From positions 12,862 to 76,861 of the forward strand of contig JBOHRW010000150.1 in NCBI GenBank assembly GCA_050732935.1: a stretch of DNA of 64,000 nucleotides, written 5' to 3'. Source of the stretch: Gemmatimonadota bacterium. Its GTDB lineage: Bacteria; Gemmatimonadota; Gemmatimonadetes; JACCXV01; JAHWKZ01. The notes under the pieces were generated by a model. That model was not told where the DNA came from. It saw nothing but the letters and a program-made list of their open reading frames with translations, and did not search any database. How positions within the stretch are numbered: position 1 is the first letter of the stretch; the number at the start of each line of letters is the position of its first letter. A program made the position numbers and the translations under genes. This document shows positions 6,930 to 62,103 of this stretch, one piece after another.

Positions 6930-9221
6930 ATGAACCGCCTTTCGATCCGCTTCGTGTCCGTCTTCGTCTTCGGGCTGCTCGCGGCCGCCCCGCTGCCCGC
7001 GCAGGAGGCCGACCCCGGAATCCTCACCCTCGAGCGCATCTTCTCGTCGGACGACTTCCAGAGGGAGCGGTTCGGTCCGGCGCGCTGGCTGGAGGGCGAA
7101 GGCGCGTACACGACGGTCGAGCCCTCCGAGGCCGTCGAGAATGGGCAGGACATCGTGCGTTACGACGCGCGGACGGGTGAGCGCGAGGTCATGATCCCGG
7201 CTTCGCAGCTGATCCCGGAGGGCGGCAACGAGGCGCTCGAGATCGAGGACTATTCGTGGTCGCCGAACGGCCAGCGGCTCCTGATCTTCACCAACTCCGA
7301 ACGCGTCTGGCGGGACAACACGCGGGGCGACTACTGGATCCTCGATCGCGGTTTGGAGACCCTGCGGAAGCTGGGCGGTGACGCGCCCGAATCGACGCTC
7401 ATGTTCGCCAAGTTCTCGCCGGACGCCTCCCGCGTTGGCTATGTCCGCTACGACGAGAACGACATCTACGTCGAGGATCTGGCGAGCGGCGAGATCACCC
7501 GACTCACGACCGATGGCTCGCGGACCATCATCAATGGCACCTTCGATTGGGTCTACGAGGAGGAGCTGAACCTCCAGGATGGCTGGCGCTGGAGCCCGGA
7601 CGGGGAGCGGATCGCCTACTGGCAGCTCGACGCCAGCGGTGTCGGTGAGTTCCTGCTCCTCAACTCCACCGACTCGCTCTACTCGTTCACGATCCCCATC
7701 CAGTACCCCAAGGCGGGAACCACCAACTCCGCGGGGAGGGTGGGTGTCGTGAGCTCGACCGGCGGCGAGACGACGTGGATGGATGTCCCGGGGGATCCGC
7801 GAAACAACTACATCGCCCGCATGGACTGGGCGGCGAGTCCCGACGAGCTCGTGCTTCAGCATCTCAACCGCCTTCAGAACACGCTCCAGATCATGCTCGC
7901 CGACGCGTCGACCGGAGAGGTGCGGACGATCCACACCGAGAGCGATCCCGATGCCTGGGTCGATATGCGCGTGGAGCTCTTCGACTGGATCGACGACGGG
8001 CAGCGCTTCCTCTGGATCAGCGAGTCGGACGGCTGGCGCCACGCCTACGTCATCTCCAGGGACGGCGAGGAGCAGCGGCTGATCACGCCCGGCGAATACG
8101 ACATCATCGACGTGGTGGGCGTCGACACGGCGGAGGAGTGGCTTTACATCCTCGCCTCGCCCGACGACCCCAAGACGCGCTACCTGTACCGGGTCCGGAT
8201 CGACGGTACGGGCGAGGAGGAGCGGCTGACCCCGGAGGAGACGGGCAGCCACGCCTACGACATGGCTCCCTCCGGCGACTGGGCGTTCCACACCTTTTCC
8301 TCCTTTGGTGTGCCGCCCGTCATCGACCTCGTGACGCTACCCGCGCACGAGTCCGTGCGGACGCTCGTCGACAACGCCGGGCTCCAGGCCACGATGGAGG
8401 CGCTCGACCGCGGCCCGGTGGAGTTCTTCCGCGTACCGAGCGCCGCGGAAGGGCTGATGCTGGACGGCTGGGTGATGAAGCCGCCCGGATTCGACGAGTC
8501 ACGGGAGTATCCCGTCCTCTTCTACGTCTATGGGGAGCCATGGGGCCAGACGGTGACCGACTCCTGGGGCGGGGAGAGGTATCTCTGGCACCTTTACCTG
8601 ACCCAGCAGGGCTACCTCGTGGCGAGCGTCGATCCCCGCGGCACGCCGGCACCCCGCGGCAGCCACTGGCGGAAGGTCATCTATCAGCGGATCGGGACCC
8701 TGACAGCGGCCGATCTGGCGGCCGCGGCCGAGGCGTTCGTCGAGCGGCCGTGGGTCGACGAGACGCGGGTCGGGATCTGGGGCTGGAGCGGTGGCGGCTC
8801 GCAGACCCTGAACGCGCTGTTCCGGTACCCGGAGATCTTCGACCTGGGGATGGCGGTCGCTCCCGTTCCCGACATCCGCCTCTACGACACGATCTATCAG
8901 GAGCGCTATATGGGCCTGCCGCAGGAGAGCCCGGAGGCCTACGCCGAGTCCAGCCCGGTCACCTATGCCGATCAGCTCGAGGGGGATCTCCTGGTCGTCC
9001 ACGGCACCGGCGACGACAACGTCCACTTCCAGGGGACCCAGCGGCTGATCGACGCCCTGGTGGCGGCCAACAAGCCGTTCACGATGATGGCCTACCCGAA
9101 CCGCACGCACGGCATCTTCGAGGGGAAGAACACGACCCTGCACCTGTTCAGCCTGCTCACCCGCTACCTGGAGGAACATCTGCCGGTGCGGGCGGCGGAG
9201 CCGGTCGCGGTCGGCCGCTAG
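6930..9221 (+). CDS. S9B family dipeptidyl-peptidase IV / prolyl tripeptidyl peptidase (secreted)
   Basis: A signal peptide MNRLSIRFVSVFVFGLLAAAPLPA|QEA begins at the internal ATG 6930. The track ORF's 5' part overlaps lat in another frame. A beta-propeller region is followed by the catalytic GWSGGG serine motif, and the gene ends DGTGDDNVHF...HGI. Confidence 0.85.
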   Translation: MNRLSIRFVSVFVFGLLAAAPLPAQEADPGILTLERIFSSDDFQRERFGPARWLEGEGAYTTVEPSEAVENGQDIVRYDARTGEREVMIPASQLIPEGGNEALEIEDYSWSPNGQRLLIFTNSERVWRDNTRGDYWILDRGLETLRKLGGDAPESTLMFAKFSPDASRVGYVRYDENDIYVEDLASGEITRLTTDGSRTIINGTFDWVYEEELNLQDGWRWSPDGERIAYWQLDASGVGEFLLLNSTDSLYSFTIPIQYPKAGTTNSAGRVGVVSSTGGETTWMDVPGDPRNNYIARMDWAASPDELVLQHLNRLQNTLQIMLADASTGEVRTIHTESDPDAWVDMRVELFDWIDDGQRFLWISESDGWRHAYVISRDGEEQRLITPGEYDIIDVVGVDTAEEWLYILASPDDPKTRYLYRVRIDGTGEEERLTPEETGSHAYDMAPSGDWAFHTFSSFGVPPVIDLVTLPAHESVRTLVDNAGLQATMEALDRGPVEFFRVPSAAEGLMLDGWVMKPPGFDESREYPVLFYVYGEPWGQTVTDSWGGERYLWHLYLTQQGYLVASVDPRGTPAPRGSHWRKVIYQRIGTLTAADLAAAAEAFVERPWVDETRVGIWGWSGGGSQTLNALFRYPEIFDLGMAVAPVPDIRLYDTIYQERYMGLPQESPEAYAESSPVTYADQLEGDLLVVHGTGDDNVHFQGTQRLIDALVAANKPFTMMAYPNRTHGIFEGKNTTLHLFSLLTRYLEEHLPVRAAEPVAVGR

Positions 9222-9301
9222 CGGGCGGTGGATCTGATCGCGGGCCCTTTTCAACGCGACCGCGGTGTGCGTTCCTCGGCAGGTCTCCGTATAATCGGCC
9301 C

Positions 9302-20263: not shown

Positions 20264-20586
20264 TCCTGGACCTTCAGGCTCGGTTGACCGTGGGGGGGGT
20301 CGACCTATATTCCGAGGCGTGCGACGACGCCATCTAAATTCCACGCGGAGCGGCATTTACGGCCGCAGCGGGCGGCCCGGACCGAGGCCAAGCTAACATT
20401 CGACATTTCCCGCGAACAATCACGGAGCCGCGCTGCCTGATACCCGCGGGGAGGCCTTCGGCTCCCTCGTGCACGACTCGGGCGGCGTCGCTCGGCGCTC
20501 TGGCGATCGTCCTTCTGGTCACCCCGCCGGCGCTCGCCCAGGAACCGGGCGCGCGCGCCCCGGCCCTCGAATGGCGGCACGCACCC

Positions 20587-23500
20587 GTGCCGGACGTCGA
20601 GAACCTGCCGTTCGATTCGATGCTCGCCTTCGATCCGTGGCTGGGCGCCGTGGTGCCCGGTCGGCCGACCCCCCTGCCCGCCCGGGAGGGGCTTCCGGTG
20701 GTGAGCGGGCTCGACGTGCTGGACTACCTCCGGGAGGTCCGGCTCCGCCGCGAGGCCCGTCTCTGGAGGCAGGTCGTGGCCGATCGTCTTGCCGGTCGTA
20801 GCCAGGAGGATGAGGGGCTCATCCCCGAGCTCGAGAATCCGCTCCGGATTCCCGAGCCGCTCGCCAGGGTTTTCGGCGAAGGCTCGGAGTTCGACATCCA
20901 GGGCCGGCTGCACCTAGGCGCGCTCGGAGCGCGCTCGAAACAGAATCCCGATCTGCGGACCGAGCTTCTCCGCCGGACCTCCGGCACTTTCGATCTCGAC
21001 CTGGACCAGACCCTCGACCTCAAGATCCTGGGGACGGTCGGGACGAAGCTCGACGTGGCGGTCGACTTCAACTCGCAGCGCGAGCTGGAGTCCAGACAGC
21101 TCATCACCGCCGCCTACACGGGGAGCGAAGACGAGATCCTCCAGAAGGTGGAAATGGGGGACATCAGCGTCGCGCTGCCACCCTCCCGTTTCCTCGGAGG
21201 CTCGGTGGGGACGGGGACCTTCGGCGCTCAGGCAGTCGCCCAGCTCGGGCCCATGGACTTCCGGGTCCTGGGCACGCGCAAGGAGGGGGAGAGCACGACG
21301 CGGTCCCTCTCGATCACCCCCAGCGGCGAGGGCGTGCTGTCGGATGTCACGCTCGATATCAAGGACACCCAGTTCCAGCGCGACCGGTTCTTCCTGCTGT
21401 TCCACCCCGATTCCCTGGCCTCGGTCCGCCTGAGCTTCCCGAATCCGGGGACCACGCTCGAGAACCCTGCTTCCCAGCCCGCGCTCGGGTCGCTCAACGT
21501 CTGGCTCGACGATGGGAATTTCTCGAACAACCGGGAGCAGAACTCCAAGCGTGGCGAGGCGCTGGTCAATCCGACCGATCCGGGCGCTTTCCCGGAACAG
21601 ACCTACGTGGGCTTTTTCGACCTCCTCGTCGAGGGGCAGGATTATGTCGTCACCGACGGGATCGTGCTGCAGATGCGGCGCCAGCTCAACGACTCCGAGG
21701 TGCTGGGGGTGTCATACGTCACCAGCGGGGGGACGCAGGTCGGGACGACTCAAGACGCCGAGGAGCAGGTTCTCAAGCTGATCAAGCCGACGAATCCCGA
21801 CACGCTGGACTTCACCTGGGACTACACCCTTCGGAACGTCTATTCCCTGCGCGAGCCGAACATCCAGCTCGGTTCCCTGGAGCTGGAGATCTATCGCGGC
21901 AACCAGGACCTCCGCCAGACCTTCGAGTCGATCGGGGGCCAGTCGCGTAAGTACTCGCGCATCTTCGGTCTCACCGACGCCAACAGTCGCGTCAACCTGC
22001 CGCGCATCCTGCGCGATCCGTTCCAGGGACCGGACTTCATCGTCTTCCCGGACGTCCGCCCGTTCTTCCAGCCCACCGACGAAACGGGTGCGGCGATCCC
22101 GATCGAGCGTCCCAACCGGCAGCTCTATTTCAACAGCGATCCGAACCGGACCGCGCTCGACGACCAGGTCTACTTCATCGAGGCCCGGTACCTGTCGCGC
22201 GGCGGACTGAGCGGCGAGATCGAGCTGGGGTCGGCCAACGTCATCGAGGGGTCGGAGCGGGTGTCGATCGGGGCGGAGACCCTGCTCCGCGGCGAGGACT
22301 ACCAGATCATCTACGAGCTCGGCCGACTCGTCCTGACCGACCCGGCCGGGCTGGCCGAGCGACATCCCAACGACCGTCTGGCCATCGAGTACGAGGTGGC
22401 TCCGCTGTTCAACCTCGCTCCGACGACGCTGTACGGCGCCGCGGGCTCCTACCATCTCGCAGAGGGGGCCGTCCTGAACTCGACCATCATGCTGCAGCGC
22501 AAGGAGAGCCTGGCCAACCGGCCGATCCTCGGCGCGGAGCCGACGCAGGCGCTGATCGCCGAGGTGGACGGTTCCTGGTCGCGGCCGCTGACCTTCATGG
22601 ACCGCTGGCTGGATGGCCTCCCCGGCTCGACCGGCGAGACGCCCTCCTCGTTCTCCCTGCGCGGGGAGATGGCCTTCAGCCGTCCGGACCCCAACACCGA
22701 CGGCGAGGTTTTCCTGAACGACTTCGAGAACATCGAGATCGCCAAGCGGCTGAGCCTGTTCTTCCGGATCTGGTACATCTCTTCGATACCCACGCAGGCC
22801 GGGCTCTCGCTCACCGATGTCGCGGATGCCCGATGGTTCACGTTCTTCATCCCGAGCGAGCAGGTCACCGGAGAACGCCGCAGGGAGGTGGATGTCGGGG
22901 AGAACAACTTCGTGATCCAGTTCGACCCGGTCGGGGAGGCCCCGACCGACCGGATGGCCTCCTGGCGCTCGATCGAGACCGTGCTGTCGACCACCGGCGA
23001 GGATCTGACGCGACAGGAGTTCATCGAGTTCTTCGTCCGTGGGGTCGAGGGCGAGATCATCGTCGATCTGGGCGTCGTGGACGAGGACGCCGTGCGGCTG
23101 GACGAGAATCGGGCGCCGGTCGGTGTCGGAGAGCTCGATACCGAGGAGGCGAATCCCGACACGCGGGACAACAACCTGGACGTCAACGAGGACACGGGTC
23201 TCGACGCCGTGCGTGGGCAGGATGCCGCCGATGTGCCCGGGGACGACGGGACGGATGATTTCAGCGAGGTCTTTGGTGCGAATTCCTTCCCGATCAATCC
23301 CAACGGGACCGAGAACAACAGCGTCCTGGACACCGAGGACAGCAACCTGAACGGGATCCTCGACCGCCAGGAGAATCTGCTGCGCTGGGAGGTCGATCTG
23401 ACGGGCGACCGCTACGTCGTCCCGGGCAGCCGAACCTCGACGGGGTTCCGGCGCATCCGCCTTCCGCTCGTGACGCCCGACCAGGTGGTGGGAAGTCCCG

Positions 23501-26250
23501 ATCTGCGGAATGTCCGGATCCTGAGGATGACGTTCACCGGCCTCGAGGACTCCACCGACTTCGAGATCGTGGATCTCGAGATCGTGGGGTCGACCTTCCT
23601 GAAGCGCGGGATCGTGGCGGCGGATGGCACCCCGCTGGCGGGACAGGAGACCGACAGCCTGCAAGTGACTGCCATCAGCGACCGCGAGAACCCGGGTTAC
23701 GAGAGTCCGCCGGGCGTGATCGCCGAGCAGGACCGGGCCGACCAGGTGGCGGGGCTGAGCGGCATCGTCCGCGAGCAATCGCTGGAGCTCACCTACAGGG
23801 GGCTTCCCCAGGGCGCGCGCGGGACGATCTTTCGCCCGCTGTTCGATCGCGAGTCGTACATCGACTACGAGCACATGCGGGTGTGGGTGCAGGGTCGTGA
23901 GGTGGAGGGGGCGGGTCAGCCCAGCTTCTTCGTCTCGTTCGGTATCGACACCCTGAACGTCTACGAGTATGCGGCTCCGCTGCGCGACATGGAGTGGGAG
24001 GAGCACGTCATCGACTTCGCGGTGTTCACCGAGCTCAAGCGGGCGCTGCTGGACAGCCTCGCCGAGGCGGGAGCCGACACCGGGACCCGCGTGTCCGAAG
24101 ATGGCCGCTACCGGGTCCGGTTGGACAACGCGGGCACCCCTCCGCCCACGCTGACCGAGGTGGCGCAGCTCACGATCGGCGTGGAGAACTCGACCGGTGC
24201 ACCGGTCACCGGCTCCTTCTGGGTCGACGAGTGGCGGCTGACCGCGCCGCTGCGGGACGGCGGGGCCGCCGCTTACCTGAACGCGCAGATGGACTTCGCG
24301 GACGTGGGGCAGGTGAACGTCTCGTACGAAACGCGGAGCGGACGATACCGCAACCTGAACGCCAACCGGAACAATTTCGACAGCGGAGATCTGGACGTGA
24401 ACGCGCTGCTTCGTCTGGACCGGTTTCTTCCCGAGGCGTGGGGTGTCTCCGTACCTCTCACCTGGAACCACTTCGGGGCGAGCGACATCCCGCTCTACCG
24501 CGTGGGTTCGGACATCCTGGTGACGAGCGGCGCGGAGCGCGACTCCATCGAGCGGAGCAGTCAATCAGACCTGATCGCCCTGCGGGCCTTCCGTACCCGG
24601 CAGTCGTCCAATCCGTTGATCGCCGCGACGCTGGACCGCCTGGAGCTCCGGATGACGTATCGGAACGACGACTTCGGCTCGGTCGACCTCGACAGCGAGC
24701 GCGGACGCTGGGATACGTACATCGGCTACCGAAACGGCTTTCGCAAGCGGGCCCTCCCCCTGGGACTGGGTTGGCTGGCCGGGCTTCCGTGGCCGTCGTT
24801 CCTGAAGGACAGCCAGCTTCTCCAGCGGCTCGCCTCGGCCGATTTGAACCTCGTGCCGGCCGACGTCACGGTGAGCGCGACGACCGACTTCGAGGAGCGA
24901 GCACAGAGCAAGCTGTTCGCCGACGGAACCGATTTTACCGCGGACACGACCCGCAACCTGAGGGGACAGGCGGCGGTCGAGTTCCAGCCATTCGCGTCCA
25001 TGCGCGCCCGGGTGGGTTGGGATTCCACGCGAGACCTGGTGTTTCCCCAGACGGTCTTCCACCGTGGCACGCTCGGAACCGAGGCCCTGCGGTCCCAGAA
25101 TCTCGACTTCGACTGGTCGCCCCCCATCGCGACGTGGCTGACTCCCCGGTACACCTACACTAGCTCTTTCTCCAAGAATCACACCCGCGAGGCGAGCCGG
25201 AGCCTGGACAGCCTCGATGTCCGTGACTTCGGGGTATCGATCAACCACACCTTGAGCGTCCAGATCGGGCTCCCCGAGCTGGTCGGGCTTCTGCAATCCG
25301 ACGAGGGCGGCGAGGCCGGCCCGGTGGCGACCTCCTCCGGGGAGAGCTGGTGGGAGCAATTGCTCGAGCCCATCCGCTATGACGCCCGACGACGCGAGAA
25401 CGTCTTCTACGTCCAGGAAGAGGACGATCCCACATTTGGATTCGGATGGGGCTTTGGCGACCTCGACGAGGAGAACCGGAGCCGCCCGCAGAGCTTCGGG
25501 CGCTACGACGAGTGGGGCCTCTCGACCGGTCTCGAGCCCCTCGATGGGCTGCTGATGCGCGGCAGCTATCGTGAGACCGACGACACCCGGCGCTATCTGG
25601 AGGGCGTCAACCTGAGCTCGTCCCGCGTGTGGCCGAGCATCGACCTCCAGTGGCGGAACATCCAGCTCCCCGGTTTTCTCGAGTCATGGGTGGCGACCAC
25701 CTCCCTGACCTCGGCGTTCGAGCGCCGGACCAGCGACAACATAGGCAACGGCCAGCTCCTCAGCGATTCCGATCGCCGGCAATGGGACCCCATTCTGTCG
25801 GTCGGCTTTACGCTGCGAAACGGCCTGTCGACCGACATCCGGGCGGTCAACAGCCAGGTCTTCACGACCCAGATCCTGGGCGGCTCGGTCGACAGCCGTC
25901 GCGAGGAGAACTCGACGGACTACCTGCTCAGCCTCGACTACAACATCCGGCCCGGGACGACGCTGTACATCCCGTTCCCGACCCTTTGGGGGGTGAAGCT
26001 GAAGCAGCCGCTCCTGACCTCGCTCACCTTCGCGCGCCGCTACCGTCTGGACGAGACGAACACGCCCCAATCGGAGACGCCGGTGGTCAATCTCGAAACC
26101 GTCACGACCGAGGTCCGCCCGTCCATCGCCTACGAGTTCGGCCGCGTCGTATCGGGGTTCGCGATCAACTATCTGTCGCGGAAGGACGAGAAGCGGGATA
26201 TACGGAATACGACCATCGGGATGGAAGCCTTCCTCGACTTTTTGTTCTAG
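20587..26250 (+). CDS. sprA: SprA-family giant outer-membrane beta-barrel (type IX secretion translocon homolog)
   Basis: 1,887 aa. The N-terminal block DLDQTLDLKILGTVGTKLDVAVDFNSQRELESRQLITAAYTGSEDEILQKVEMGDISVALP...FGAQAVAQLGPMDFRVLGTRKEGESTTRS is collinear with Flavobacterium SprA (DFDQRISMSLMGKIGTRLEVNANYDTQ...YTPSEDDIIQKIEVGNVSMPL...FGVKTQLQFG). The sequence is Gly/Asn/Asp-rich beta-strand throughout. The coordinate uses the first canonical start (GTG). A signal-peptide-like sequence is encoded in frame upstream; see findings. Confidence 0.7.
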   Translation: MPDVENLPFDSMLAFDPWLGAVVPGRPTPLPAREGLPVVSGLDVLDYLREVRLRREARLWRQVVADRLAGRSQEDEGLIPELENPLRIPEPLARVFGEGSEFDIQGRLHLGALGARSKQNPDLRTELLRRTSGTFDLDLDQTLDLKILGTVGTKLDVAVDFNSQRELESRQLITAAYTGSEDEILQKVEMGDISVALPPSRFLGGSVGTGTFGAQAVAQLGPMDFRVLGTRKEGESTTRSLSITPSGEGVLSDVTLDIKDTQFQRDRFFLLFHPDSLASVRLSFPNPGTTLENPASQPALGSLNVWLDDGNFSNNREQNSKRGEALVNPTDPGAFPEQTYVGFFDLLVEGQDYVVTDGIVLQMRRQLNDSEVLGVSYVTSGGTQVGTTQDAEEQVLKLIKPTNPDTLDFTWDYTLRNVYSLREPNIQLGSLELEIYRGNQDLRQTFESIGGQSRKYSRIFGLTDANSRVNLPRILRDPFQGPDFIVFPDVRPFFQPTDETGAAIPIERPNRQLYFNSDPNRTALDDQVYFIEARYLSRGGLSGEIELGSANVIEGSERVSIGAETLLRGEDYQIIYELGRLVLTDPAGLAERHPNDRLAIEYEVAPLFNLAPTTLYGAAGSYHLAEGAVLNSTIMLQRKESLANRPILGAEPTQALIAEVDGSWSRPLTFMDRWLDGLPGSTGETPSSFSLRGEMAFSRPDPNTDGEVFLNDFENIEIAKRLSLFFRIWYISSIPTQAGLSLTDVADARWFTFFIPSEQVTGERRREVDVGENNFVIQFDPVGEAPTDRMASWRSIETVLSTTGEDLTRQEFIEFFVRGVEGEIIVDLGVVDEDAVRLDENRAPVGVGELDTEEANPDTRDNNLDVNEDTGLDAVRGQDAADVPGDDGTDDFSEVFGANSFPINPNGTENNSVLDTEDSNLNGILDRQENLLRWEVDLTGDRYVVPGSRTSTGFRRIRLPLVTPDQVVGSPDLRNVRILRMTFTGLEDSTDFEIVDLEIVGSTFLKRGIVAADGTPLAGQETDSLQVTAISDRENPGYESPPGVIAEQDRADQVAGLSGIVREQSLELTYRGLPQGARGTIFRPLFDRESYIDYEHMRVWVQGREVEGAGQPSFFVSFGIDTLNVYEYAAPLRDMEWEEHVIDFAVFTELKRALLDSLAEAGADTGTRVSEDGRYRVRLDNAGTPPPTLTEVAQLTIGVENSTGAPVTGSFWVDEWRLTAPLRDGGAAAYLNAQMDFADVGQVNVSYETRSGRYRNLNANRNNFDSGDLDVNALLRLDRFLPEAWGVSVPLTWNHFGASDIPLYRVGSDILVTSGAERDSIERSSQSDLIALRAFRTRQSSNPLIAATLDRLELRMTYRNDDFGSVDLDSERGRWDTYIGYRNGFRKRALPLGLGWLAGLPWPSFLKDSQLLQRLASADLNLVPADVTVSATTDFEERAQSKLFADGTDFTADTTRNLRGQAAVEFQPFASMRARVGWDSTRDLVFPQTVFHRGTLGTEALRSQNLDFDWSPPIATWLTPRYTYTSSFSKNHTREASRSLDSLDVRDFGVSINHTLSVQIGLPELVGLLQSDEGGEAGPVATSSGESWWEQLLEPIRYDARRRENVFYVQEEDDPTFGFGWGFGDLDEENRSRPQSFGRYDEWGLSTGLEPLDGLLMRGSYRETDDTRRYLEGVNLSSSRVWPSIDLQWRNIQLPGFLESWVATTSLTSAFERRTSDNIGNGQLLSDSDRRQWDPILSVGFTLRNGLSTDIRAVNSQVFTTQILGGSVDSRREENSTDYLLSLDYNIRPGTTLYIPFPTLWGVKLKQPLLTSLTFARRYRLDETNTPQSETPVVNLETVTTEVRPSIAYEFGRVVSGFAINYLSRKDEKRDIRNTTIGMEAFLDFLF

Positions 26251-26299
26251 GCTGCTCTTCAGGTCTGGCTTCGCTCGGGTGGACCTCTATCTTCCGTGG

Positions 26300-27268
26300 A
26301 TGTTTCGAACCCGGATTCGTCGCCCGCAGGCGCTGTGGACGCTGGTGCTGGCGGCGCTCGCTCTGGTGCTCGCCTGCGGGGACGACGGAGGGCCGGAGCC
26401 CGTCGCAGGTGCGAGCTTCAGTGGAGAGCTGGCCGACAGCCTGGTCCGCCAGCTCGTGGCCTTCGGACCGCGGGTCCCGGGGACCGCGGCGCACGCAGAG
26501 GCGCTCGCCTGGATGACCGACTACCTGCGCGAGCGCACGGACGTCGTCGAACAGCGTCCGTTCACACACGTGACGCAGACCGGGGACACCCTCGAGCTGA
26601 CCAACCTGTGGGCTCAGTTCAATCCTCAGGCCGGGCAGCGCATCCTGGTGACCGGTCACTGGGACTCGCGGCCGGTGGCCGAGAAGGAGGCCGACCCGGC
26701 GAACCGCGACCGGCCGATCCCGGGAGCCAACGATGGCGGCTCGAGCGCGGCCGTGATCCTCGCCCTGGCCGATGTCCTGGCGGAGGATCCTCCCGCCATC
26801 GGCGTCGATCTCCTGCTGACCGATGGCGAGGACTGGGGCCACGACCCGGCCACCTTCAGCACGTTCGTCCCCGACATGTTCCTCGGAGCCAGGCACTTCG
26901 CCGCCAACGACGGCGCCGACTATCGGCCCCTGTTCGGCATCCTGCTGGACATGGTGGGGGAGGAGGGCGCGCGGTTCCCGATAGAGCAGAACAGTGAAGA
27001 GTTCGCCCCCGAGGTCGTGAGCCGGGTCTGGGAGGCCGCCGCGGACCTCGGCTATGGCGAGATCTTCGAATCGCGGGTCGGCCGGCCCGTCACCGACGAC
27101 CACGTCATCCTGAACCAGGCGGGAATCCGCACCATCGACATCATCGACTTCGACTACCCGTTCTGGCACACGCTGGAGGACACCCCCGACAAGCTGTCGG
27201 CGGCCACCATGGACGCTGTCGGCGACGTCGTCCTCGAAGTCATTCGTCGTCAGGCGGTAGGGGAGTAG
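26300..27268 (+). CDS. Glutaminyl-peptide cyclotransferase-like M28 zinc enzyme (lipoprotein)
   Basis: Lipobox LVLAALALVLAC. The motifs GHWDSRP...GANDGGSSAAVILALADVL...LLLTDGEDWG...GARHFA match animal-type QC motifs (HYDSK, GATDSAV, FFDGEE, GSRHLA). They do not match the aminopeptidase EExGLxGS motif. Confidence 0.65.
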   Translation: MFRTRIRRPQALWTLVLAALALVLACGDDGGPEPVAGASFSGELADSLVRQLVAFGPRVPGTAAHAEALAWMTDYLRERTDVVEQRPFTHVTQTGDTLELTNLWAQFNPQAGQRILVTGHWDSRPVAEKEADPANRDRPIPGANDGGSSAAVILALADVLAEDPPAIGVDLLLTDGEDWGHDPATFSTFVPDMFLGARHFAANDGADYRPLFGILLDMVGEEGARFPIEQNSEEFAPEVVSRVWEAAADLGYGEIFESRVGRPVTDDHVILNQAGIRTIDIIDFDYPFWHTLEDTPDKLSAATMDAVGDVVLEVIRRQAVGE

Positions 27269-27339: not shown

Positions 27340-28089
27340 ATGACACCTGGCTGGCTGGACGAGAGGCTGACACCCGCCGAGCGCCAGGTCCTGGTAAGCC
27401 TGGCGGCGGCGTGGGCGTTCGGCGTGGTGGCCGGATGGATGGGCGTGCCGGAGCGGCTGGTGGATTGGTCGGAGCGGCGTCTCCATCCGCCCCTGCCAAC
27501 GCCGGAGGAGCTGGCCCGCGGGCTGTCGCCCGACGATCCACGTCCGGCCCTCTACGCCACCGGTCTCGCGGCCCGACGGGAGAAGGAGCGGGCGGCGGGC
27601 AAGCCCGTCCCGATCGATCCCAACACGGCCGATCGCGCGGCCTGGGTCCGACTACCGGGAATCGGCCCGCGCACGGCGGCCGCCATCCTGGAGCATCGAG
27701 CGGCCCGCGGGCCGTTCCGGCGGTCGGAGGACCTGCTGGCGGTGCGGGGGATCGGCCCGGTGACGCTCGAGAAGCTCCGGCCCTGGCTCCGATGGCCTCC
27801 TGGCGCGGCGGCCACGGGGCGCCCCGGTGGGCGAGGAGCGGGTTCCGGGCCCCCCGATCTCAACGAGGTGGACGCGGCGTTCCTGGAGGGGCTGCCCGGA
27901 ATCGGTCCAGAACTTGCTAGATCCATAGTCGAAGTTCGCCGACGGCGGCGTGGTTTTCGTGCCTGGCCGGAGGTCCTCGAAGTCGAAGGGATCGGACCGG
28001 CGAAGCTGCGCGTCTTGCAAAACGCGACGCGGCTCGAAAGGGCGCGCCCCGCAGCGCCTGCCGACCCTGTACGGCGAGAGACCGACTAG
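27340..28089 (+). CDS. ComEA-like competence protein with tandem helix-hairpin-helix domains
   Basis: An N-terminal membrane anchor is followed by two HhH modules: DPNTADRAAWVRLPGIGPRTAAAILEHRAARGPFRRSEDLLAVRGIGPVTLEKL and a second copy VDAAFLEGLPGIGPELARSIVEVRR...VEGIGPAKL. Confidence 0.7.
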   Translation: MTPGWLDERLTPAERQVLVSLAAAWAFGVVAGWMGVPERLVDWSERRLHPPLPTPEELARGLSPDDPRPALYATGLAARREKERAAGKPVPIDPNTADRAAWVRLPGIGPRTAAAILEHRAARGPFRRSEDLLAVRGIGPVTLEKLRPWLRWPPGAAATGRPGGRGAGSGPPDLNEVDAAFLEGLPGIGPELARSIVEVRRRRRGFRAWPEVLEVEGIGPAKLRVLQNATRLERARPAAPADPVRRETD

Positions 28090-38487: not shown

Positions 38488-38510
38488 TCCTCGATCCGGC
38501 ATAGCGACCA

Positions 38511-39187: not shown

Positions 39188-39198
39188 CCGGGCCTTCC

Positions 39199-45775: not shown

Positions 45776-46443
45776 TGCTCGGTCTCGATTCCCCCGACCG
45801 TCAGCGGATGGCGCTGTTCGGCCTGTTGCTCGTGGGCGGCGCGGTGCTGTTCCACCGCTACGTGTGGTCGCCCCTCCACGACGACCGGATCGCGACGGAG
45901 ACGCATCTCGCGCGCCTCGATCGGACCAACCGTCAGGCGCGGGCGCTGACCCAGCCCACTCGCATCTCCGAGCTCGAGCGGCTCGAGAGTGAGTACGAGG
46001 TGGCGCTGGCGGCATACGAGCCTCTGTTCCCTCACCGCTCCGAGGCCATGGGACTGCTCGCCGGTGTCTCCAGCGCGGCTCTGTCCGCCGACGTCGAGAT
46101 CGTGAGCTTCGCCCCGCGGGAGAAGATCGAGGGGAAGGTGCTCGTGGAGATTCCCTACGAAGTGGAGGTCCAGGGCTCGTATCACGACATCGGTCGGTTC
46201 CTGGCCGGCGTGATCAACCTGCCGCAGATCGTTCGACCGGAGGTCATCAACCTGGCGGGCGTCTTCGACGACGACCCCGATCGCGGGGAGCTCGAGCATC
46301 AGGTCCTGGGGACGCTGGTGCTCTCGGCGTACGTGCGCGCGTCGCAGGAGATCCGCATCGAGCCGGCTCGCAACGCGGCGCTCCCGGAGTCGTCCGGCGG
46401 AGTCCACGCGGTCCGTAGCGCGGGAGGGCCCGATGAAGGCTAG
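45772..46443 (+). CDS. pilO: Type IV pilus assembly protein PilO
   Basis: N-terminal TM (LFGLLLVGGAVLF), a coiled coil, and a C-terminal ferredoxin-like region (YEVEVQGSYHDIGRFLAGVINLPQIV). Confidence 0.7.
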   Translation: MMLGLDSPDRQRMALFGLLLVGGAVLFHRYVWSPLHDDRIATETHLARLDRTNRQARALTQPTRISELERLESEYEVALAAYEPLFPHRSEAMGLLAGVSSAALSADVEIVSFAPREKIEGKVLVEIPYEVEVQGSYHDIGRFLAGVINLPQIVRPEVINLAGVFDDDPDRGELEHQVLGTLVLSAYVRASQEIRIEPARNAALPESSGGVHAVRSAGGPDEG

Positions 46444-46951
46444 CGCTGTCCTGCTCTTCCTCGTGGTCCTCTCGGTCCCGGCGCATGCCTTGGCCCAGCA
46501 GGAGATCGAGCCGGTGGAGGTGAAGGCCCTGGCCTCCCCCGTCACCCCGGCGGCCTACGTCTCGGACGGTCGGCGGGATCCGTTCCTGCCGCTCACCGGG
46601 ATCTACGCCTCGCAGGAGGACGGCGCACCGCGCCTCGAGCAGCTCGAGCTGACCGGGATCTTCATGGGCGCGCCCGGCAACAGCCTGGTCGTGCTCGAGG
46701 ATCACACCCGCCGCGGACACTTCGTGCGGGTCGGGGAGTCGCTGGGTAACGCGCGGCTGCTCGAGATCCTGCCCGACGCGGCCGTCTTCGAGGTCGATGG
46801 CTACGGGATCCTCCGTCGCGACACCCTGCGCCTGGTGCCGGATCGGCGGACCGCCGACGAACCGCCGGAGTCGTCCCCGGACCCGCCACCCGCAGGATCC
46901 CCGCCGGCGCGGCCTGAGCCGCCCCAGCCGCAAGCCGGGGAGGGCCCGTGA
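46433..46951 (+). CDS. pilP: Type IV pilus assembly protein PilP (secretin-binding)
   Basis: Signal peptide ...AHALA|QQE. RRDPFLP (the PilP DPF motif). A Pro-rich C-terminal tail. Confidence 0.65.
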   Translation: MKASAVLLFLVVLSVPAHALAQQEIEPVEVKALASPVTPAAYVSDGRRDPFLPLTGIYASQEDGAPRLEQLELTGIFMGAPGNSLVVLEDHTRRGHFVRVGESLGNARLLEILPDAAVFEVDGYGILRRDTLRLVPDRRTADEPPESSPDPPPAGSPPARPEPPQPQAGEGP

Positions 46952-48915
46952 TCGGCCGGCTCGGCCTTCCGCTGATCGTGGCGGCGCTCCTGGGCGCCGA
47001 GGCGAAGCCGCTCGGGGGCACCCCGTCCCCGCAGACCGGCCGCGCGACCGAGGTGGTGCGCGGTTTCCGCGTGGTCAGCGACGGAGACGTCACCCGTATC
47101 GTCATCGAGACCACGGGCGCCGTCGCCTATCGCGACGACTTCCAGCCGCTGCCGCCCCGGCTCACGATCGAGCTTCTGGGCGTCCGCCCCGGGCTGCCGC
47201 TCCAGGAGTACGACGGGATCCGGCGCGGAGGCGTGCGCTACGTAGTCGCCAGCGCGCCGTCGCCGGACCGCGTCAGGCTCGACATCGCGCTGACGGGAGT
47301 CACCGCCTACGCGGTCTATCAGCAGGGATCGCAGGTCCATGTCACCTTCGACAACCCCGGCGCGGCATTCAGCGCCTTCGTCGCGGATGGCGACGCGCGG
47401 GAGGCGCCCGGTGGCAGCGTGACGAGGGTCTCCTCGTCTCCGTCCTCCTACGGGACGGCGCTCCAGGGGTCGGACCCCGGTCTGGACGGCGTCGACGGCG
47501 AGCCGATCTCGCTCTCCTTCCAGGGCGCCGACATCGAGACCGTGATCCGCGCCTTCGGCGAGATCAGCGGTCGTTCGATCGTCGCCGGGACGGGAGCGCG
47601 CGGCATCCGCATCACCGCCGACATCCGCGACCGCCCCTGGGACGAGGCGCTGGTGGCCGTCATGCACGCCAACGGCCTCGAGGTGCGCCATCAGAACGGC
47701 ATCATCCGCGTCGACACCGTCCAGAACCTGCGCGAGACCGAGCAGCTCGTGGATCTCGGCACGATCGTGCTCCAGCTCAACTACATCGCGGCCGCGGACG
47801 TGGTCCCGGTCCTGGCGCCGCTCAAGTCCGAGCGCGGCAGCGTCACCGCCGACGCCAAGACGAACTCGCTGGTCATCACCGACATCCCCACCCGCGTGCG
47901 GCGGATCACCGACATCGTGCGCGAGCTCGACGTCCAGACCCCGCAGGTCACGATCAAGGCCAAGATCGTATTCGTGAACAAGGTCGACCTGCGGGATCTG
48001 GGGGTGAAGTGGCGGATGGAGAACCTGCGCGACCCGACGGTGGACACCCACGTGCTCGCCAACACCGAGGGCACGCTGGCGGATCCGTTCCTCGACCTGT
48101 CACTCGGAACGCTGGCCTCGGGCCTCAACATCGGCGGTCTCCTGCAGGCGCTCGAGCAGCGCGAGCTGGCGGACATCCAGGCCGAGCCCCAGACGACGGT
48201 GCTCAACAACCTGCCGGCCGAGGTATTCGTGGGGGAGCGAACGCCCATCCGCGTCCTCGACGTGGGCGCCGACACGCCCGAGGCCCGGGCCAGCGTGGAG
48301 CTGATCGAGACCGGCATCATCCTCAGGGTCACCCCGCACATCACCGCCAACGGCAAGGTGCTCATGGAGCTCCACGCCGAGCGCTCGGGCGTGGCGATCT
48401 CCGACCCGGCTATCGGCGTGACGTTCAACACGCAACGCGCGACCTCGCAGATCCTGGTGGACGACGGCGAGACCGCGGTCATCGGCGGGCTCACCGTGGA
48501 GGATGTGTCGACCGTTCGGCGTGGCATCCCCATCCTCAAGGACATCCCGATTCTGGGCGCGCTGTTTCGGAGCGAGCGGAAACGCGAGGAGAAGCGCGAC
48601 CTGCTGATCTTCGTGACGCCCTACGTCATGCCGGTGGACGATCCCGAGCCGGAGACCGTCTCGGCGGTCTGCCTCGAGGACCAGCCCTGGTACCGGAGCG
48701 ACCAGGCGATCGTCCACAACGGGGAGCGGTGGCTCCGCTACGGATCGCCGCGGCGGATGAATCCGCGCGGCCTGGTGGCGGTCGGCAATTTCCGCGGCGT
48801 GCCGATCTACACGGCGGTGGAGACGGCGGCCCTCGAGATCTACCTGCCGCTCTGCTCGGAGGGCTTGTTCCAGGCCTATCGGATGGTCCCCGAGCTGCGG
48901 GGGACGAACGGATGA
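46948..48915 (+). CDS. pilQ: Type IV pilus secretin PilQ with AMIN and N-domains
   Basis: N-domains SFQGADIETVIRAFGEISGRSIVAG. Secretin core VTPHITANGKVLMEL...AVIGGL...GIPILKDIPILGALFRSERKREEKRDLLIFVTPYVM. An extra 90 aa with two Cys follows the secretin domain. Confidence 0.85.
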   Translation: MIGRLGLPLIVAALLGAEAKPLGGTPSPQTGRATEVVRGFRVVSDGDVTRIVIETTGAVAYRDDFQPLPPRLTIELLGVRPGLPLQEYDGIRRGGVRYVVASAPSPDRVRLDIALTGVTAYAVYQQGSQVHVTFDNPGAAFSAFVADGDAREAPGGSVTRVSSSPSSYGTALQGSDPGLDGVDGEPISLSFQGADIETVIRAFGEISGRSIVAGTGARGIRITADIRDRPWDEALVAVMHANGLEVRHQNGIIRVDTVQNLRETEQLVDLGTIVLQLNYIAAADVVPVLAPLKSERGSVTADAKTNSLVITDIPTRVRRITDIVRELDVQTPQVTIKAKIVFVNKVDLRDLGVKWRMENLRDPTVDTHVLANTEGTLADPFLDLSLGTLASGLNIGGLLQALEQRELADIQAEPQTTVLNNLPAEVFVGERTPIRVLDVGADTPEARASVELIETGIILRVTPHITANGKVLMELHAERSGVAISDPAIGVTFNTQRATSQILVDDGETAVIGGLTVEDVSTVRRGIPILKDIPILGALFRSERKREEKRDLLIFVTPYVMPVDDPEPETVSAVCLEDQPWYRSDQAIVHNGERWLRYGSPRRMNPRGLVAVGNFRGVPIYTAVETAALEIYLPLCSEGLFQAYRMVPELRGTNG

Positions 48916-60593: not shown

Positions 60594-61606
60594 GTTCGTC
60601 GGTGCCACTCGTCTCGGTCGTCGTGCCGGTTCTGAACGGCGGGACCGACTTCGAGCGCTGTCTGGCGGCGCTGGCCGGCAGCGAGTTCCGCGATTACGAG
60701 CTCATCGTCGTGGACGACGGTTCGATGGACGGCTCGCCCGGGCTCGCCGCTACCTACGGGGCACGGGTCGTGCGGAGTGCCGGACGCCGCGGCCCAGGAG
60801 CGTCACGGAACCAGGGCGTGGTCCACGCCCGGGGGGAGATCGTCCTCTTCCTCGACGCCGACTGCGAGGTCCACGCCGACACCCTCGGTCGGGCGGCGGC
60901 CGCCTTCCGGACCTCGCCGCCGCCGGACGCCGTCTTCGGGAGCTACGACGACGCGCCCGCGGCGGACGGCATGGTGACGGTGTTCAAGAACCTGCAGCAC
61001 CATTACGTCCATCAGCAAGGCCGGTCGGAGGCGCGGACGTTCTGGGCCGGGTGCGGCGCCGTCAGGCGTTCGGTGTTCCAGGAGGTCGGGGGGTTCGACG
61101 GGGAACTATTCCCGCGACCGAGCATAGAAGACATCGAGCTGGGCTACCGGCTGCGCGAGCGCGGGTTCACGGTCCGGCTGTGCCCGGCGATGCAGGTCAA
61201 GCATCTCAAGCGATGGACGCTCGCGGGTCTGATTCGTACCGATGTTCTCGATCGAGGGGTTCCATGGACGCGCCTCATGCTTTCTCGCGGCTTTCTGGAG
61301 ACCGATCTCAACCTGGGATGGCGTCACCGGATCGGTGTGGCGCTTGCATGGACGCTCTTCGCCCTCCTCCTGCTCTCGCCGTTCGCCCCGCTCCTTCTCG
61401 GGGGCGCGGCGGCCGCCGTCGTCACGCTGTTCGCGGTCAACCTCGACTTCTACCGCTTTCTCGCCGAGCGGCAGGGAGTGGGTTTCGCCGTCCGCGCCAT
61501 TCCCCTGCACTGGCTCCATTACCTCTACAGCGGACTGGCCTTCGGATGGGGGCTTCTGGCTCACATGTGGTCGCGATTGACCGGCCGGCGCATCGTTCGT
61601 CTGTGA
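60560..61606 (+). CDS. GT2 glycosyltransferase with C-terminal TM helices (GtrB/ArnC/DPM1-like polyprenol-phosphate glycosyltransferase)
   Basis: VSVVVPVLNGGTDFERCLAAL...YELIVVDDGS...LFLDADCEV is the GT2 DXD signature. Two C-terminal hydrophobic helices are present. Confidence 0.75.
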   Translation: MDIQSDRPPVLSSSVPLVSVVVPVLNGGTDFERCLAALAGSEFRDYELIVVDDGSMDGSPGLAATYGARVVRSAGRRGPGASRNQGVVHARGEIVLFLDADCEVHADTLGRAAAAFRTSPPPDAVFGSYDDAPAADGMVTVFKNLQHHYVHQQGRSEARTFWAGCGAVRRSVFQEVGGFDGELFPRPSIEDIELGYRLRERGFTVRLCPAMQVKHLKRWTLAGLIRTDVLDRGVPWTRLMLSRGFLETDLNLGWRHRIGVALAWTLFALLLLSPFAPLLLGGAAAAVVTLFAVNLDFYRFLAERQGVGFAVRAIPLHWLHYLYSGLAFGWGLLAHMWSRLTGRRIVRL

Positions 61607-62103
61607 GCGCCCGCGCGCCGGTGGCGCCGCTCGGACGAGTCCGCCAGTTCGTCGTCGCCAGCTTTCTCCTGGCGGTCGCCTCGGGCCTCGCTGCCGGCAA
61701 GGGATTCGCCCAGGGGAATCCCGACACCGAGACGTTCTCGTGCACGGTCGCCTTCGTGATCGACGGCGACTCGTTCAACTGTCGCAGCGGGATCAAGGTG
61801 CGCCTGCTGCTGGTGAACGCGCCCGAGGACGGGCCGTTCGGCGACCTTGCCCGTGGCGCGCTGGCTGGCCTGCTGCCGGCCGGTGAGCGCTTCCGCATCG
61901 AAACCGATCGTCGCCGCCAGGATAAGCAGGGGCGTGTCATGGGCTATGTATTCCTGCCTGACGGGCAGATGGTGAACGAGATGATGATCCGCCAGGGCTA
62001 CGCCTTCCTCAAGCCCGACGAGACCAACCAGAGGTACCTGACCGAGCTGCGTGAGGCCGAGGCCGCCGCCCGGGAGACCGAGCGGGGTCTCTGGGCGCGC
62101 TGA
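61603..62103 (+). CDS. Secreted thermonuclease (SNase/micrococcal-nuclease-like)
   Basis: Signal peptide ...AAGKGFA|QGN. VIDGDSFNCR...VRLLLVNAPE...GR.MGYVFL.DG..VNEMMIRQGYA is the SNase fold signature. Confidence 0.65.
   Translation: MSARAPVAPLGRVRQFVVASFLLAVASGLAAGKGFAQGNPDTETFSCTVAFVIDGDSFNCRSGIKVRLLLVNAPEDGPFGDLARGALAGLLPAGERFRIETDRRRQDKQGRVMGYVFLPDGQMVNEMMIRQGYAFLKPDETNQRYLTELREAEAAARETERGLWAR

What the first reader, a model, noticed from the sequence alone, without database searches (positions are those of the whole stretch)
6930..61700. All predicted signal-peptidase-I substrates in the window have Gln at +1 (Q-rule), and the matching QC gene is present
Predicted cleavage sites, read directly from the sequence:
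- DPP-IV: ...APLPA|QEA
- SprA: ...PPALA|QEP
- TPR exported protein: ...SPGRA|QDP
- PilP: ...AHALA|QQE
- thermonuclease: ...GKGFA|QGN

That is five of five non-lipoprotein signal peptides. This pattern is known as the Bacteroidetes Q-rule. It is coupled to periplasmic glutaminyl cyclase, which is encoded here at 26300-27268. It indicates genome-wide N-terminal pyroglutamylation in this organism.
Basis: partly seen in the sequence, partly recalled or inferred. Interest (0 to 1): 0.55.

Follow-up and report, generated by a model that had tools for sequence, protein, structure and literature searches.

The report
Q-rule and glutaminyl cyclase in Gemmatimonadota
A Gemmatimonadota genome fragment shows the "Q-rule" known from Bacteroidetes, where exported proteins start with glutamine after signal-peptide removal, and it encodes the matching glutaminyl cyclase, so a known trait extends to a phylum where it had not been reported.

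Summary
All five quoted cleavage contexts are in the sequence, and each places a CAG (Gln) codon right after a small residue. The gene at 26300-27268 is a bacteroidal-type (type II, M28-fold) glutaminyl cyclase. It is a lipoprotein with every active-site hallmark checked except the Phe294 equivalent.

"Five of five" is overstated in three ways:
- A sixth SPI substrate, the PilQ secretin, has Lys at +1.
- The SprA signal peptide has no in-frame ATG, GTG or TTG. The only candidate start is an invariant CTG or ATA.
- The PilP site is ambiguous to a +1-blind rule. Orthologue conservation is what settles it.

The organism is a Gemmatimonadota MAG, not a Bacteroidetes species.

The pattern holds beyond the window:
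- Gln at +1 is kept in 110/111 DPP-IV homologues, 36/36 nuclease homologues, 7/7 PilP orthologues and 13/16 SprA orthologues.
- A crude +1-blind pipeline gives 33/79 Gln in Gemmatimonadota loci against 5/52 in controls.
- After curation, 13 of 17 SPI protein families have Gln.

The QC gene lies directly downstream of sprA in Gemmatimonadota, Ignavibacteria, Zixibacteria and Eisenbacteria, but not in the Bacteroidota loci sampled.

This is a known mechanism in a new phylum. Pyroglutamylation itself is inferred, not shown.

The parts
6930..9221 (+). DPP-IV (S9 peptidase). Signal peptide 6930-7001 (MNRLSIRFVSVFVFGLLAAAPLPA), Gln codon CAG at 7002-7004.
   Evidence: Pfam DPPIV_N 6e-87 and Peptidase_S9. 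The +1-blind best site is A|Q. 110/111 full-length homologues have [AGS]Q in the 22 residues before the mature anchor motif. Coordinates verified.
20437..26250 (+). SprA/Sov-like T9SS translocon gene (ORF open from 20338). Signal-peptide-like segment 20437-20538 (L/M-IPAGRPSAPSCTTRAASLGALAIVLLVTPPALA), Gln codon at 20539-20541. There is no canonical start codon before it. CTG 20437 and ATA 20440 are the candidates.
   Evidence: Pfam SprA_N 1.3e-20. Sequence read. The same arrangement occurs in L001 and L004, with an invariant CCTGATACCC. 13 of 16 Gemmatimonadota orthologues have best-site Gln and 15 of 16 have an allowed Gln site.
20307..20455 (+). About 150 nt of sprA leader that is almost invariant between the window, L001 and L004. 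Function unknown.
   Evidence: Alignment A1. No Rfam match. No unusual fold, z = -1.09.
26300..27268 (+). Glutaminyl cyclase, bacteroidal type II (M28 fold), lipoprotein. Lipobox LVLA|C26, Zn ligands Asp145(-Gly146), Asp178 and His290, catalytic Glu177, Asp217, Trp289. Starts 49 nt after the sprA stop codon.
   Evidence: PDB hits TfQC 4e-56, PdQC 3tc8, BtQC 4fuu and PgQC 4e-49, with alignments. Motifs located. Hallmarks as listed in PMC7948796. No terminator-like site between sprA and QC. Gap measured.
32720..33526 (+). Exported TPR protein. Signal peptide 32720-32785 (MKHSLILAVGVTTILSASPGRA), Gln codon at 32786-32788.
   Evidence: Weak Pfam TPR_16/TPR_19 hits, below the gathering score. The +1-blind best site is A|Q. 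All three family members, window plus L001 and L002, have an allowed A|QDPHEH site.
46433..46951 (+). PilP-like protein, named by its position between pilO and pilQ. Signal peptide 46433-46495 (MKASAVLLFLVVLSVPAHALA), Gln codon at 46496-46498.
   Evidence: No Pfam hit. The +1-blind rule ranks AHA|L 3.25 against ALA|Q 2.95. All 7 orthologues keep [AGS]|Q while the flanking residues vary.
46948..48915 (+). PilQ secretin. Signal peptide 46948-47004 (VIGRLGLPLIVAALLGAEA), +1 = Lys (AAG).
   Evidence: Pfam Secretin, Secretin_N and AMIN. Site prediction. Relatives L087-L089 also lack Gln(+1). L090, L091 and L095 have ALA|QQ.
61603..62103 (+). Thermonuclease (SNase). Signal peptide 61603-61710, Gln codon at 61711-61713.
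   Evidence: Pfam SNase 4.7e-18. The +1-blind best site is A|Q. All 36 full-length close homologues (P0241-P0276) carry A|Q 8-12 residues before the conserved SCTVAFVIDGD motif.
33553..34611 (+). Second M28 protein. A true aminopeptidase-type lipoprotein (LLGAG|C) that serves as an internal contrast to the QC.
   Evidence: PDB hits are aminopeptidases only. It has the motifs GADDD, GEE and YH where the QC has GANDG, GED and WH.
27340..28089 (+). ComEA-like membrane-anchored HHH protein directly downstream of QC. It is not an SPI substrate, and it was the main false positive of the crude predictor.
   Evidence: Pfam HHH_3 1.7e-29. A 12-member orthologue family with a non-Gln 'site'.

Best explanation
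The window comes from a Gemmatimonadota bacterium that follows the Q-rule.

Most Sec/signal-peptidase-I substrates are built so that cleavage after a small residue (A, G or S) exposes an N-terminal glutamine. A lipoprotein glutaminyl cyclase of the bacteroidal type II (single-zinc, M28-fold) class sits on the periplasmic side of a membrane. It converts that glutamine to pyroglutamate. By analogy with Porphyromonas gingivalis, this protects exported proteins from aminopeptidases and dipeptidyl peptidases. The window itself encodes two such enzymes, an exported DPP-IV and an M28 aminopeptidase lipoprotein.

Shown here: the Gln(+1) bias, its conservation across orthologues, and the QC's identity, lipobox and active-site residues. 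Inferred: that cleavage happens at the predicted sites, that Gln is cyclised in vivo, and that cyclisation stabilises the proteins.
For: - Five of six SPI substrates in the window have Gln at +1.
- A site rule that ignores +1 picks the Gln site in four of them.
- Gln(+1) is conserved while the signal peptide varies: DPP-IV 110/111, SNase 36/36, PilP 7/7, SprA 13/16 at the best site and 15/16 at any allowed site, TPR 3/3, M20 peptidase 3/3.
- The same crude pipeline gives 33/79 Gln in Gemmatimonadota against 5/52 in Planctomycetota, Chloroflexota, Sinorhizobium and Ralstonia (Fisher p = 4e-5).
- After removing annotated non-SPI families, 13 of 17 families are Gln.
- QC is 4e-56 to TfQC and 4e-49 to PgQC. 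It has the lipobox, Asp-Gly, Glu-Asp, LLDMVG, DDH and Trp-His. These motifs are kept in 102-112 of 112 homologues.
- A paralogous M28 in the same window carries the aminopeptidase versions Asp-Asp, Glu-Glu and Tyr-His.
- The discriminating residues come from PMC7948796.
Against: - No SignalP or LipoP was available. My predictor is crude: about half of its raw 'SPI' calls in the window were false positives before I tightened it.
- Moving mis-sited orthologues to the Gln site uses hindsight.
- The sample is about 0.6 Mb of loci, largely syntenic, so only 17 independent families stand behind the estimate.
- PilQ is a clear exception.
- SprA needs a non-canonical start codon.
- No mass-spectrometry or enzymatic data exist for any Gemmatimonadota.
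- The Phe294 equivalent of PgQC cannot be placed, because the loop before Trp-His is shorter.
Confidence: 0.8

Rival explanations
1. The Gln is a feature of particular protein families rather than an organism-wide rule. It would have been inherited with each gene, possibly by transfer from Bacteroidota. The mature N-terminus of DPP-IV, SprA and the others simply begins with a conserved Gln in every phylum.
For: DPP-IV homologues labelled Blastocatellia/Acidobacteriota, KSB1 and Rhodothermales also carry A|Q. SprA orthologues in some Zixibacteria and Ignavibacteria loci also start with Gln.
Against: Thirteen unrelated families in Gemmatimonadota loci show Gln. They include a lipocalin, an M20 peptidase, a nuclease, a TPR protein and PilP. 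Within PilQ and SprA the Gln comes and goes between lineages, so it is not a fixed part of the fold. In the KSB1 locus all six signal peptides have Gln, which points to organism-level rules there too.
Confidence: 0.1
2. The gene at 26300-27268 is an ordinary M28 aminopeptidase. N-terminal Gln is either left free or cyclises spontaneously.
For: Public annotation calls it 'M28 family peptidase'. Pfam sees only Peptidase_M28. Solved bacteroidal QCs were themselves first deposited as 'leucine aminopeptidase'.
Against: All top solved relatives are demonstrated or reassigned QCs, with E 1e-47 to 1e-56. True aminopeptidases barely register, the only one being YwaD 6hc6 at E 1.4e-4. The QC-specific residues Asp-Gly, Glu-Asp and Trp-His are present. 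The window's other M28 has the aminopeptidase set (criteria from PMC7948796).
Confidence: 0.06
3. The pattern is chance, or comes from choosing cleavage sites to fall before a Gln.
For: For PilP an equally good AXA site lies two residues upstream. Gln at +1 is not rare in the controls, at 4/27 in the two proteobacterial replicons.
Against: A +1-blind rule still selects Gln in four of six proteins. The binomial p is 5.5e-5 to 1.6e-3. Orthologue conservation is independent of site choice. Gemmatimonadota differ from controls at p = 4e-5.
Confidence: 0.03

Closest known systems
Bacteroidetes Q-rule (Bochtler et al. 2018, PMC5837995; 2023 follow-up, PMC10653852)
   Same: There is a strong excess of Gln immediately after SPI cleavage sites: 5/6 in the window and about 13/17 families in related loci. 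The published mean for Bacteroidetes is 71%. Lipoproteins are exempt because they have Cys at +1. A membrane-anchored QC is encoded. Exported peptidases such as DPP-IV are themselves substrates.
   Different: The host phylum is Gemmatimonadota. The 2018 paper does not mention this phylum in its text or its held supplements. No paper in the library links it to QC or applies the Q-rule to it. The QC gene sits directly behind sprA, which was not seen in the Bacteroidota loci sampled. There is no proteomic proof of pGlu.
Bacteroidal type II glutaminyl cyclases PgQC, TfQC, PiQC, BtQC and PdQC (Taudte et al. 2021, PMC7948796; PDB 6qql, 6qro, 4fuu, 3tc8)
   Same: Full-length alignment at E 1e-49 to 1e-56. 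N-terminal lipobox Cys. Zn ligands Asp(-Gly), Asp (replacing human Glu202) and His. Catalytic Glu. The LLDMVG Asp. Trp before the His.
   Different: There is a seven-residue deletion in the loop before Trp-His, so the PgPhe294 equivalent is uncertain. The sequence is high-GC and comes from another phylum. Activity is untested.
M28 double-zinc aminopeptidases (Vibrio/Aeromonas AAP, SgAP)
   Same: Same Pfam family (PF04389) and the same fold class.
   Different: The QC has Asp-Gly, Glu-Asp and Trp-His where aminopeptidases have Asp-Asp/Asn, Glu-Glu and Tyr-His. The window's own aminopeptidase-type paralogue (33553-34611) shows the latter set.

Membership tests
Q-rule organism (as defined by Bochtler 2018) | Most SPI substrates have Gln at +1. 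The published Q-value is above 48% in 332 of 334 Bacteroidetes species. | tested here: met
   Window 5/6. Gemmatimonadota loci 33/79 raw and 13/17 curated families, against 5/52 in controls. This used a crude predictor on a sample, not a proteome.
Q-rule organism (as defined by Bochtler 2018) | A glutaminyl cyclase is encoded in the genome. | tested here: met
   26300-27268.
Q-rule organism (as defined by Bochtler 2018) | The organism belongs to the phylum Bacteroidetes/Bacteroidota. | tested here: not met
   100%-identical proteins lie on an NCBI contig labelled Gemmatimonadota. All close QC homologues are from Gemmatimonadota or Longimicrobiaceae.
Q-rule organism (as defined by Bochtler 2018) | Mature N-termini are pyroglutamate, as shown by MS or Edman blockage. 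| not testable with these tools
   Needs proteomics.
Bacteroidal type II glutaminyl cyclase (PgQC-like) | Full-length similarity to solved bacteroidal QCs, well above the similarity to aminopeptidases. | tested here: met
   TfQC 4e-56 and PgQC 4e-49. The only aminopeptidase among the hits, YwaD, scores 1.4e-4.
Bacteroidal type II glutaminyl cyclase (PgQC-like) | Single-zinc ligand set: Asp followed by Gly, Asp in place of human Glu202, and His. | tested here: met
   GAND145-G146, GE177-D178, W289-H290. Criteria from PMC7948796.
Bacteroidal type II glutaminyl cyclase (PgQC-like) | Catalytic Glu (HsGlu201 equivalent), Asp (HsAsp248 equivalent), and Trp preceding the zinc His. | tested here: met
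   Glu177, Asp217 in LLDMVG, Trp289.
Bacteroidal type II glutaminyl cyclase (PgQC-like) | Phe equivalent to PgPhe294 lining the active site. | tested here: inconclusive
   The loop is seven residues shorter. Phe288 sits next to Trp289, but the alignment is ambiguous.
Bacteroidal type II glutaminyl cyclase (PgQC-like) | N-terminal lipid anchor (lipobox Cys). | tested here: met
   MFRTRIRRPQALWTLVLAALALVLA|CGDD. 54 of 112 homologues are called SPII by the crude rule, and many of the rest are N-terminally truncated or mis-started.
Bacteroidal type II glutaminyl cyclase (PgQC-like) | Cyclase activity on N-terminal Gln peptides. | not testable with these tools
   Needs an enzyme assay.
T9SS translocon SprA/Sov | A very large (about 1900-2400 aa) exported protein with the SprA_N domain. 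| tested here: met
   About 1900 aa, SprA_N 1.3e-20. Other T9SS components were not looked for.

The most novel reading that the evidence does not exclude
The Q-rule and its bacteroidal-type QC may not be a Bacteroidetes speciality. They may be an older trait of a wider FCB-related group that includes Gemmatimonadota and KSB1, and possibly some Acidobacteriota. In the non-Bacteroidota lineages sampled, the QC gene lies directly downstream of the T9SS translocon gene sprA on the same strand. That adjacency across phyla would point to a functional link between the T9SS translocon and N-terminal pyroglutamylation. Bochtler et al. raised such a link from phylogenetic co-occurrence and could not establish it.
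Probability: 0.3. Interest if true: 0.6.

Novelty: new member of a known kind. Interest (0 to 1): 0.4.

Why it matters
The Q-rule and its cyclase are presented in the literature as Bacteroidetes-specific, and the cyclase is being pursued as a selective drug target in oral pathogens.

Finding the same signal-peptide design and an orthologous cyclase in Gemmatimonadota changes the evolutionary picture. This is a widespread soil and sediment phylum, and there are hints of the same trait in KSB1 and beyond. The trait becomes either ancestral to a larger FCB-related group or repeatedly acquired.

There are practical consequences. Signal-peptide predictors and N-terminomics for these phyla should expect blocked pGlu N-termini.

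The conserved sprA-QC adjacency gives a concrete, testable handle on the unexplained co-occurrence of type IX secretion and high Q-values.

Tried and rejected
- **Exact look-up of PilP:** not on record. Look-ups at the window ends added only about 8 kb of mostly cytoplasmic genes.
- **Metagenome scan with PilQ:** returned only 16 loci, 9 of them close relatives. These were useful for PilP and PilQ orthologues but not for a broad sample.
- **First two versions of my signal-peptide rule:** too loose. They called TopA, Rossmann N-termini, pilins, PilN, ComEA and PspC as SPI substrates. I tightened the rule. It is still imperfect, so I report raw, any-site and curated counts separately.
- **Ignavibacteria and other FCB loci:** 2/19 Gln. 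I treat this as uninformative. The sample is tiny, several calls are lipoproteins or doubtful, and Ignavibacterium album is published at 77%.
- **Rfam on the whole window and on the sprA leader:** no match. An RNA fold of the leader is no better than shuffles, z = -1.09, so I do not propose an RNA element.
- **Second M28 gene (33553-34611) as the QC:** rejected. Its PDB hits and motifs are of the aminopeptidase type.
- **QC-like M28 homologues in Planctomycetota and Chloroflexota:** about 35% identity, but with different conserved neighbours and no Gln excess. I do not count them as the same system.
- **Structure prediction of the QC:** not run, because the sequence evidence was already decisive.


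Full report
**What the window is.** The window is 68% G+C. I trained a codon-usage gene caller on its long ORFs, and it gives 58 genes with tight, mostly same-strand packing. The DPP-IV and the nuclease encoded here are 100% identical to proteins on one 84,298-bp NCBI contig named 'MAG: Gemmatimonadota bacterium'. The QC protein has a 99% match with the same label. All of its close homologues (50-88% identity) are from Gemmatimonadota or Longimicrobiaceae MAGs. The organism is therefore a member of Gemmatimonadota, not Bacteroidetes.

**Checking the observation.** All five quoted cleavage contexts exist, and each places a CAG codon directly after Ala:
- DPP-IV: 6930-9221, ...APLPA|QEAD.
- SprA: ORF 20338-26250, ...PPALA|QEPG.
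- TPR protein: 32720-33526, ...SPGRA|QDPH.
- PilP-like protein: 46433-46951, ...AHALA|QQEI.
- Staphylococcal-type nuclease: 61603-62103, ...GKGFA|QGNP.

Pfam confirms DPPIV_N/Peptidase_S9, SprA_N, weak TPR and SNase. PilP has no Pfam hit and is named only from its place between pilO and pilQ.

I read the N-terminus of every called gene and applied a signal-peptide rule that ignores the +1 residue. PilQ (46948-48915; Secretin, Secretin_N and AMIN domains) starts at a GTG that overlaps the pilP stop codon. It has a clear signal peptide, VIGRLGLPLIVAALLGAEA|KPLG, with Lys at +1. The remaining N-terminal hydrophobic segments belong to other classes:
- Lipoproteins: 9685, the QC, the M28 aminopeptidase at 33553, 45254 and 48921.
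- Type IV pilin-like proteins: 38107 to 42211.
- Membrane anchors: PilN, PilO, a ComEA-like protein, PspC, LptF/G-like permeases and a histidine kinase.

The correct count is five of six.

**Two caveats on the five.** First, the SprA signal peptide has no in-frame ATG, GTG or TTG upstream. The first canonical start, GTG 20587, lies after the peptide. The same holds in the nearest genome relative, L001. In the window, L001 and L004 the only candidate start is an invariant CCTGATACCC, which contains CTG 20437 and ATA 20440. More distant Gemmatimonadota SprA orthologues have ordinary starts and signal peptides ending ...A|Q.

Second, for PilP the +1-blind rule scores AHA|LA (3.25) just above ALA|QQ (2.95). 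Orthologues settle this. All seven PilP sequences keep [A/S/G]|Q at that boundary while the surrounding residues change.

**Is it more than chance?** For background Gln(+1) frequencies of 10-20%, five of six has p = 5.5e-5 to 1.6e-3. Conservation gives independent support:
- 110 of 111 full-length DPP-IV homologues have [AGS]Q in the 22 residues before the conserved mature motif.
- All 36 full-length close nuclease homologues have A|Q 8-12 residues before SCTVAFVIDGD.
- 13 of 16 Gemmatimonadota SprA orthologues have Gln at the best-scoring site, and 15 of 16 have an allowed Gln site.

PilQ is instructive. Relatives at about 70% identity have ALA|QQ. The window's own clade has lost it.

**A wider sample.** I scanned one genome per species with the QC protein, which returned 80 loci. 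I then added PilQ loci from metagenomes and DPP-IV neighbourhoods. Every locus went through the same gene caller and the same +1-blind rule. Counts of predicted SPI sites with Gln at the best site:

| Group | Gln at best site | Gln at any allowed site |
|---|---|---|
| Gemmatimonadota (window plus 44 loci, about 0.6 Mb) | 33/79 | 45/79 |
| Planctomycetota | 1/17 | 3/17 |
| Chloroflexota | 0/8 | 0/8 |
| Sinorhizobium pSymB and Ralstonia megaplasmid (300 kb) | 4/27 | 6/27 |

Fisher's exact test for Gemmatimonadota against the pooled controls gives p = 4e-5.

Many Gemmatimonadota hits are orthologues of each other, so I clustered them into 27 families. Ten are not SPI substrates by annotation or inspection: the ComEA anchor, PspC, two lipoprotein families, Ku, two membrane proteins and three doubtful ORFs. 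The other 17 break down as follows:
- 13 have Gln: SprA, PilP, DPP-IV, TPR, a 'QSETSE' family, the nuclease, an M20 peptidase, a lipocalin and five singletons.
- PilQ is mixed.
- One is ambiguous.
- Two are non-Gln.

That is about 76%, close to the 71% mean reported for Bacteroidetes. This estimate rests on a home-made predictor and some hindsight in re-siting orthologues. It is not a substitute for SignalP on a proteome.

**The cyclase.** The protein encoded at 26300-27268 matches solved bacteroidal QCs over its full length: TfQC 6qro at 4e-56, PdQC 3tc8, BtQC 4fuu and PgQC 6qql at 4e-49. Animal QCs follow at about 1e-6, and the only aminopeptidase among the hits, YwaD, is at 1.4e-4. It carries the features Taudte et al. 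list as hallmarks of bacteroidal type II QCs (PMC7948796):
- A lipobox Cys (LVLA|C26).
- The zinc Asp followed by Gly (Asp145-Gly146).
- The catalytic Glu followed by the bacteroidal-specific zinc Asp (Glu177-Asp178).
- The Asp of LLDMVG (Asp217).
- Trp289-His290.

These motifs are present in 102-112 of 112 full-length homologues. The equivalent of PgPhe294 cannot be placed, because the preceding loop is seven residues shorter.

The window also holds a second M28 lipoprotein (33553-34611). It matches only true aminopeptidases and has the aminopeptidase versions of the same positions: Asp-Asp, Glu-Glu and Tyr-His. This gives an internal control for the assignment.

**Mechanism.** The best-supported reading is the published one, moved to a new phylum. 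Sec export and SPI cleavage expose Gln. The lipid-anchored QC cyclises it to pyroglutamate on the periplasmic side. The blocked N-terminus resists aminopeptidases and dipeptidyl peptidases (PMC5837995, PMC10653852). The window itself encodes an exported DPP-IV and an M28 aminopeptidase, and an M20 peptidase lies just outside it. The sequence bias and the enzyme's identity are shown here. Cleavage position, cyclisation in vivo and the protective role are inferred.

[quoted passage not shown] It reports a 'continuum' of Q-values elsewhere, from 2% to 77% for Ignavibacterium. It does not mention Gemmatimonadetes in the text or in the supplements held. [quoted passage not shown] No paper in the searchable library combines Gemmatimonad* with glutaminyl cyclase. 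The single paper holding both 'Q-rule' and 'Gemmatimonad*' only lists the phylum as a possible T9SS carrier. This is therefore a new member of a known kind: the same mechanism and an orthologous enzyme in an unreported phylum.

**Things found on the way.**
1. The QC gene lies directly downstream of sprA on the same strand. The gap in the window is 49 nt, with no terminator-like site. This holds in every Gemmatimonadota locus that has enough upstream sequence. It also holds in all five Ignavibacteria-labelled loci, both Zixibacteria loci, the Eisenbacteria locus and two unclassified loci. Pfam confirmed SprA_N for L030, L034, L036 and L044. It is absent from the three Bacteroidota loci, and from the Planctomycetota and Chloroflexota loci, which have other conserved neighbours. 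This bears on the T9SS/Q-value co-occurrence noted in 2018.
2. A KSB1 locus has Gln at +1 in all six signal peptides. An Acidobacteriota-labelled locus has it in both of its two.
3. The sprA leader is nearly invariant over about 150 nt in three species. It has no Rfam match and no unusual fold.

**Verdict.** The QC call is correct. The Q-rule interpretation is right in mechanism but wrong in assumed taxonomy. Interest is moderate. The biology is known, but the phylum is new, and the sprA-QC linkage is a lead worth testing.

Noticed in passing
window 20338-27268; loci L001-L027, L030, L031, L034, L036, L038, L039, L043, L044, L046: The QC gene sits immediately downstream of the giant sprA gene on the same strand. 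This holds in all Gemmatimonadota loci with enough upstream sequence, and in Ignavibacteria, Zixibacteria, Eisenbacteria and two unclassified loci. It does not hold in the three Bacteroidota loci, nor in Planctomycetota or Chloroflexota.
   Followed up: partly
window 20307-20541; L001 3967-4215; L004: The SprA signal peptide has no in-frame ATG, GTG or TTG. An invariant CCTGATACCC (CTG 20437 / ATA 20440) is the only candidate start. It is preceded by about 150 nt that are almost identical in three species whose QC proteins are only 80-85% identical. There is no Rfam hit and no unusual RNA fold.
   Followed up: partly
L113 (KSB1, GCA_034505955.1) and L111 (Acidobacteriota-labelled, GCA_038040485.1): All six signal peptides in the KSB1 locus end in [AS]|Q. 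Both SPI candidates in the Acidobacteriota-labelled locus do too. DPP-IV homologues labelled Blastocatellia and Rhodothermales also carry A|Q. This suggests the Q-rule reaches further than Gemmatimonadota.
   Followed up: partly
L048-L080 (Planctomycetota, Chloroflexota): M28 proteins about 35% identical to the QC are widespread in Planctomycetota and Anaerolineae. They have their own conserved upstream neighbours (about 177 aa and about 450 aa respectively). The small local sample shows no Gln(+1) excess. Their function is unknown.
   Followed up: no
window 26300-27268 and 33553-34611: The window holds two M28 lipoproteins. One has the QC residue set (Asp-Gly, Glu-Asp, Trp-His) and the other the aminopeptidase set (Asp-Asp, Glu-Glu, Tyr-His). 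Together they form a ready-made contrast pair.
   Followed up: yes
window 46948-48915; L087-L095: PilQ has ALA|QQ in relatives at about 70% identity. It has lost Gln(+1) in the window's own clade (AEA|K; SVA|A or LAG|IQ). The rule is therefore not absolute, even within one orthologue group.
   Followed up: yes
window 27340-50063: There is a large type IV pilus region. It runs from a ComEA-like HHH protein next to the QC, through pilB, pilT and pilC, a sensor kinase and response regulator, and a major pilin plus about seven pilin-like genes. It ends with pilM-pilN-(conserved lipoprotein 45254-45775)-pilO-pilP-pilQ and a Big_1 lipoprotein.
   Followed up: partly
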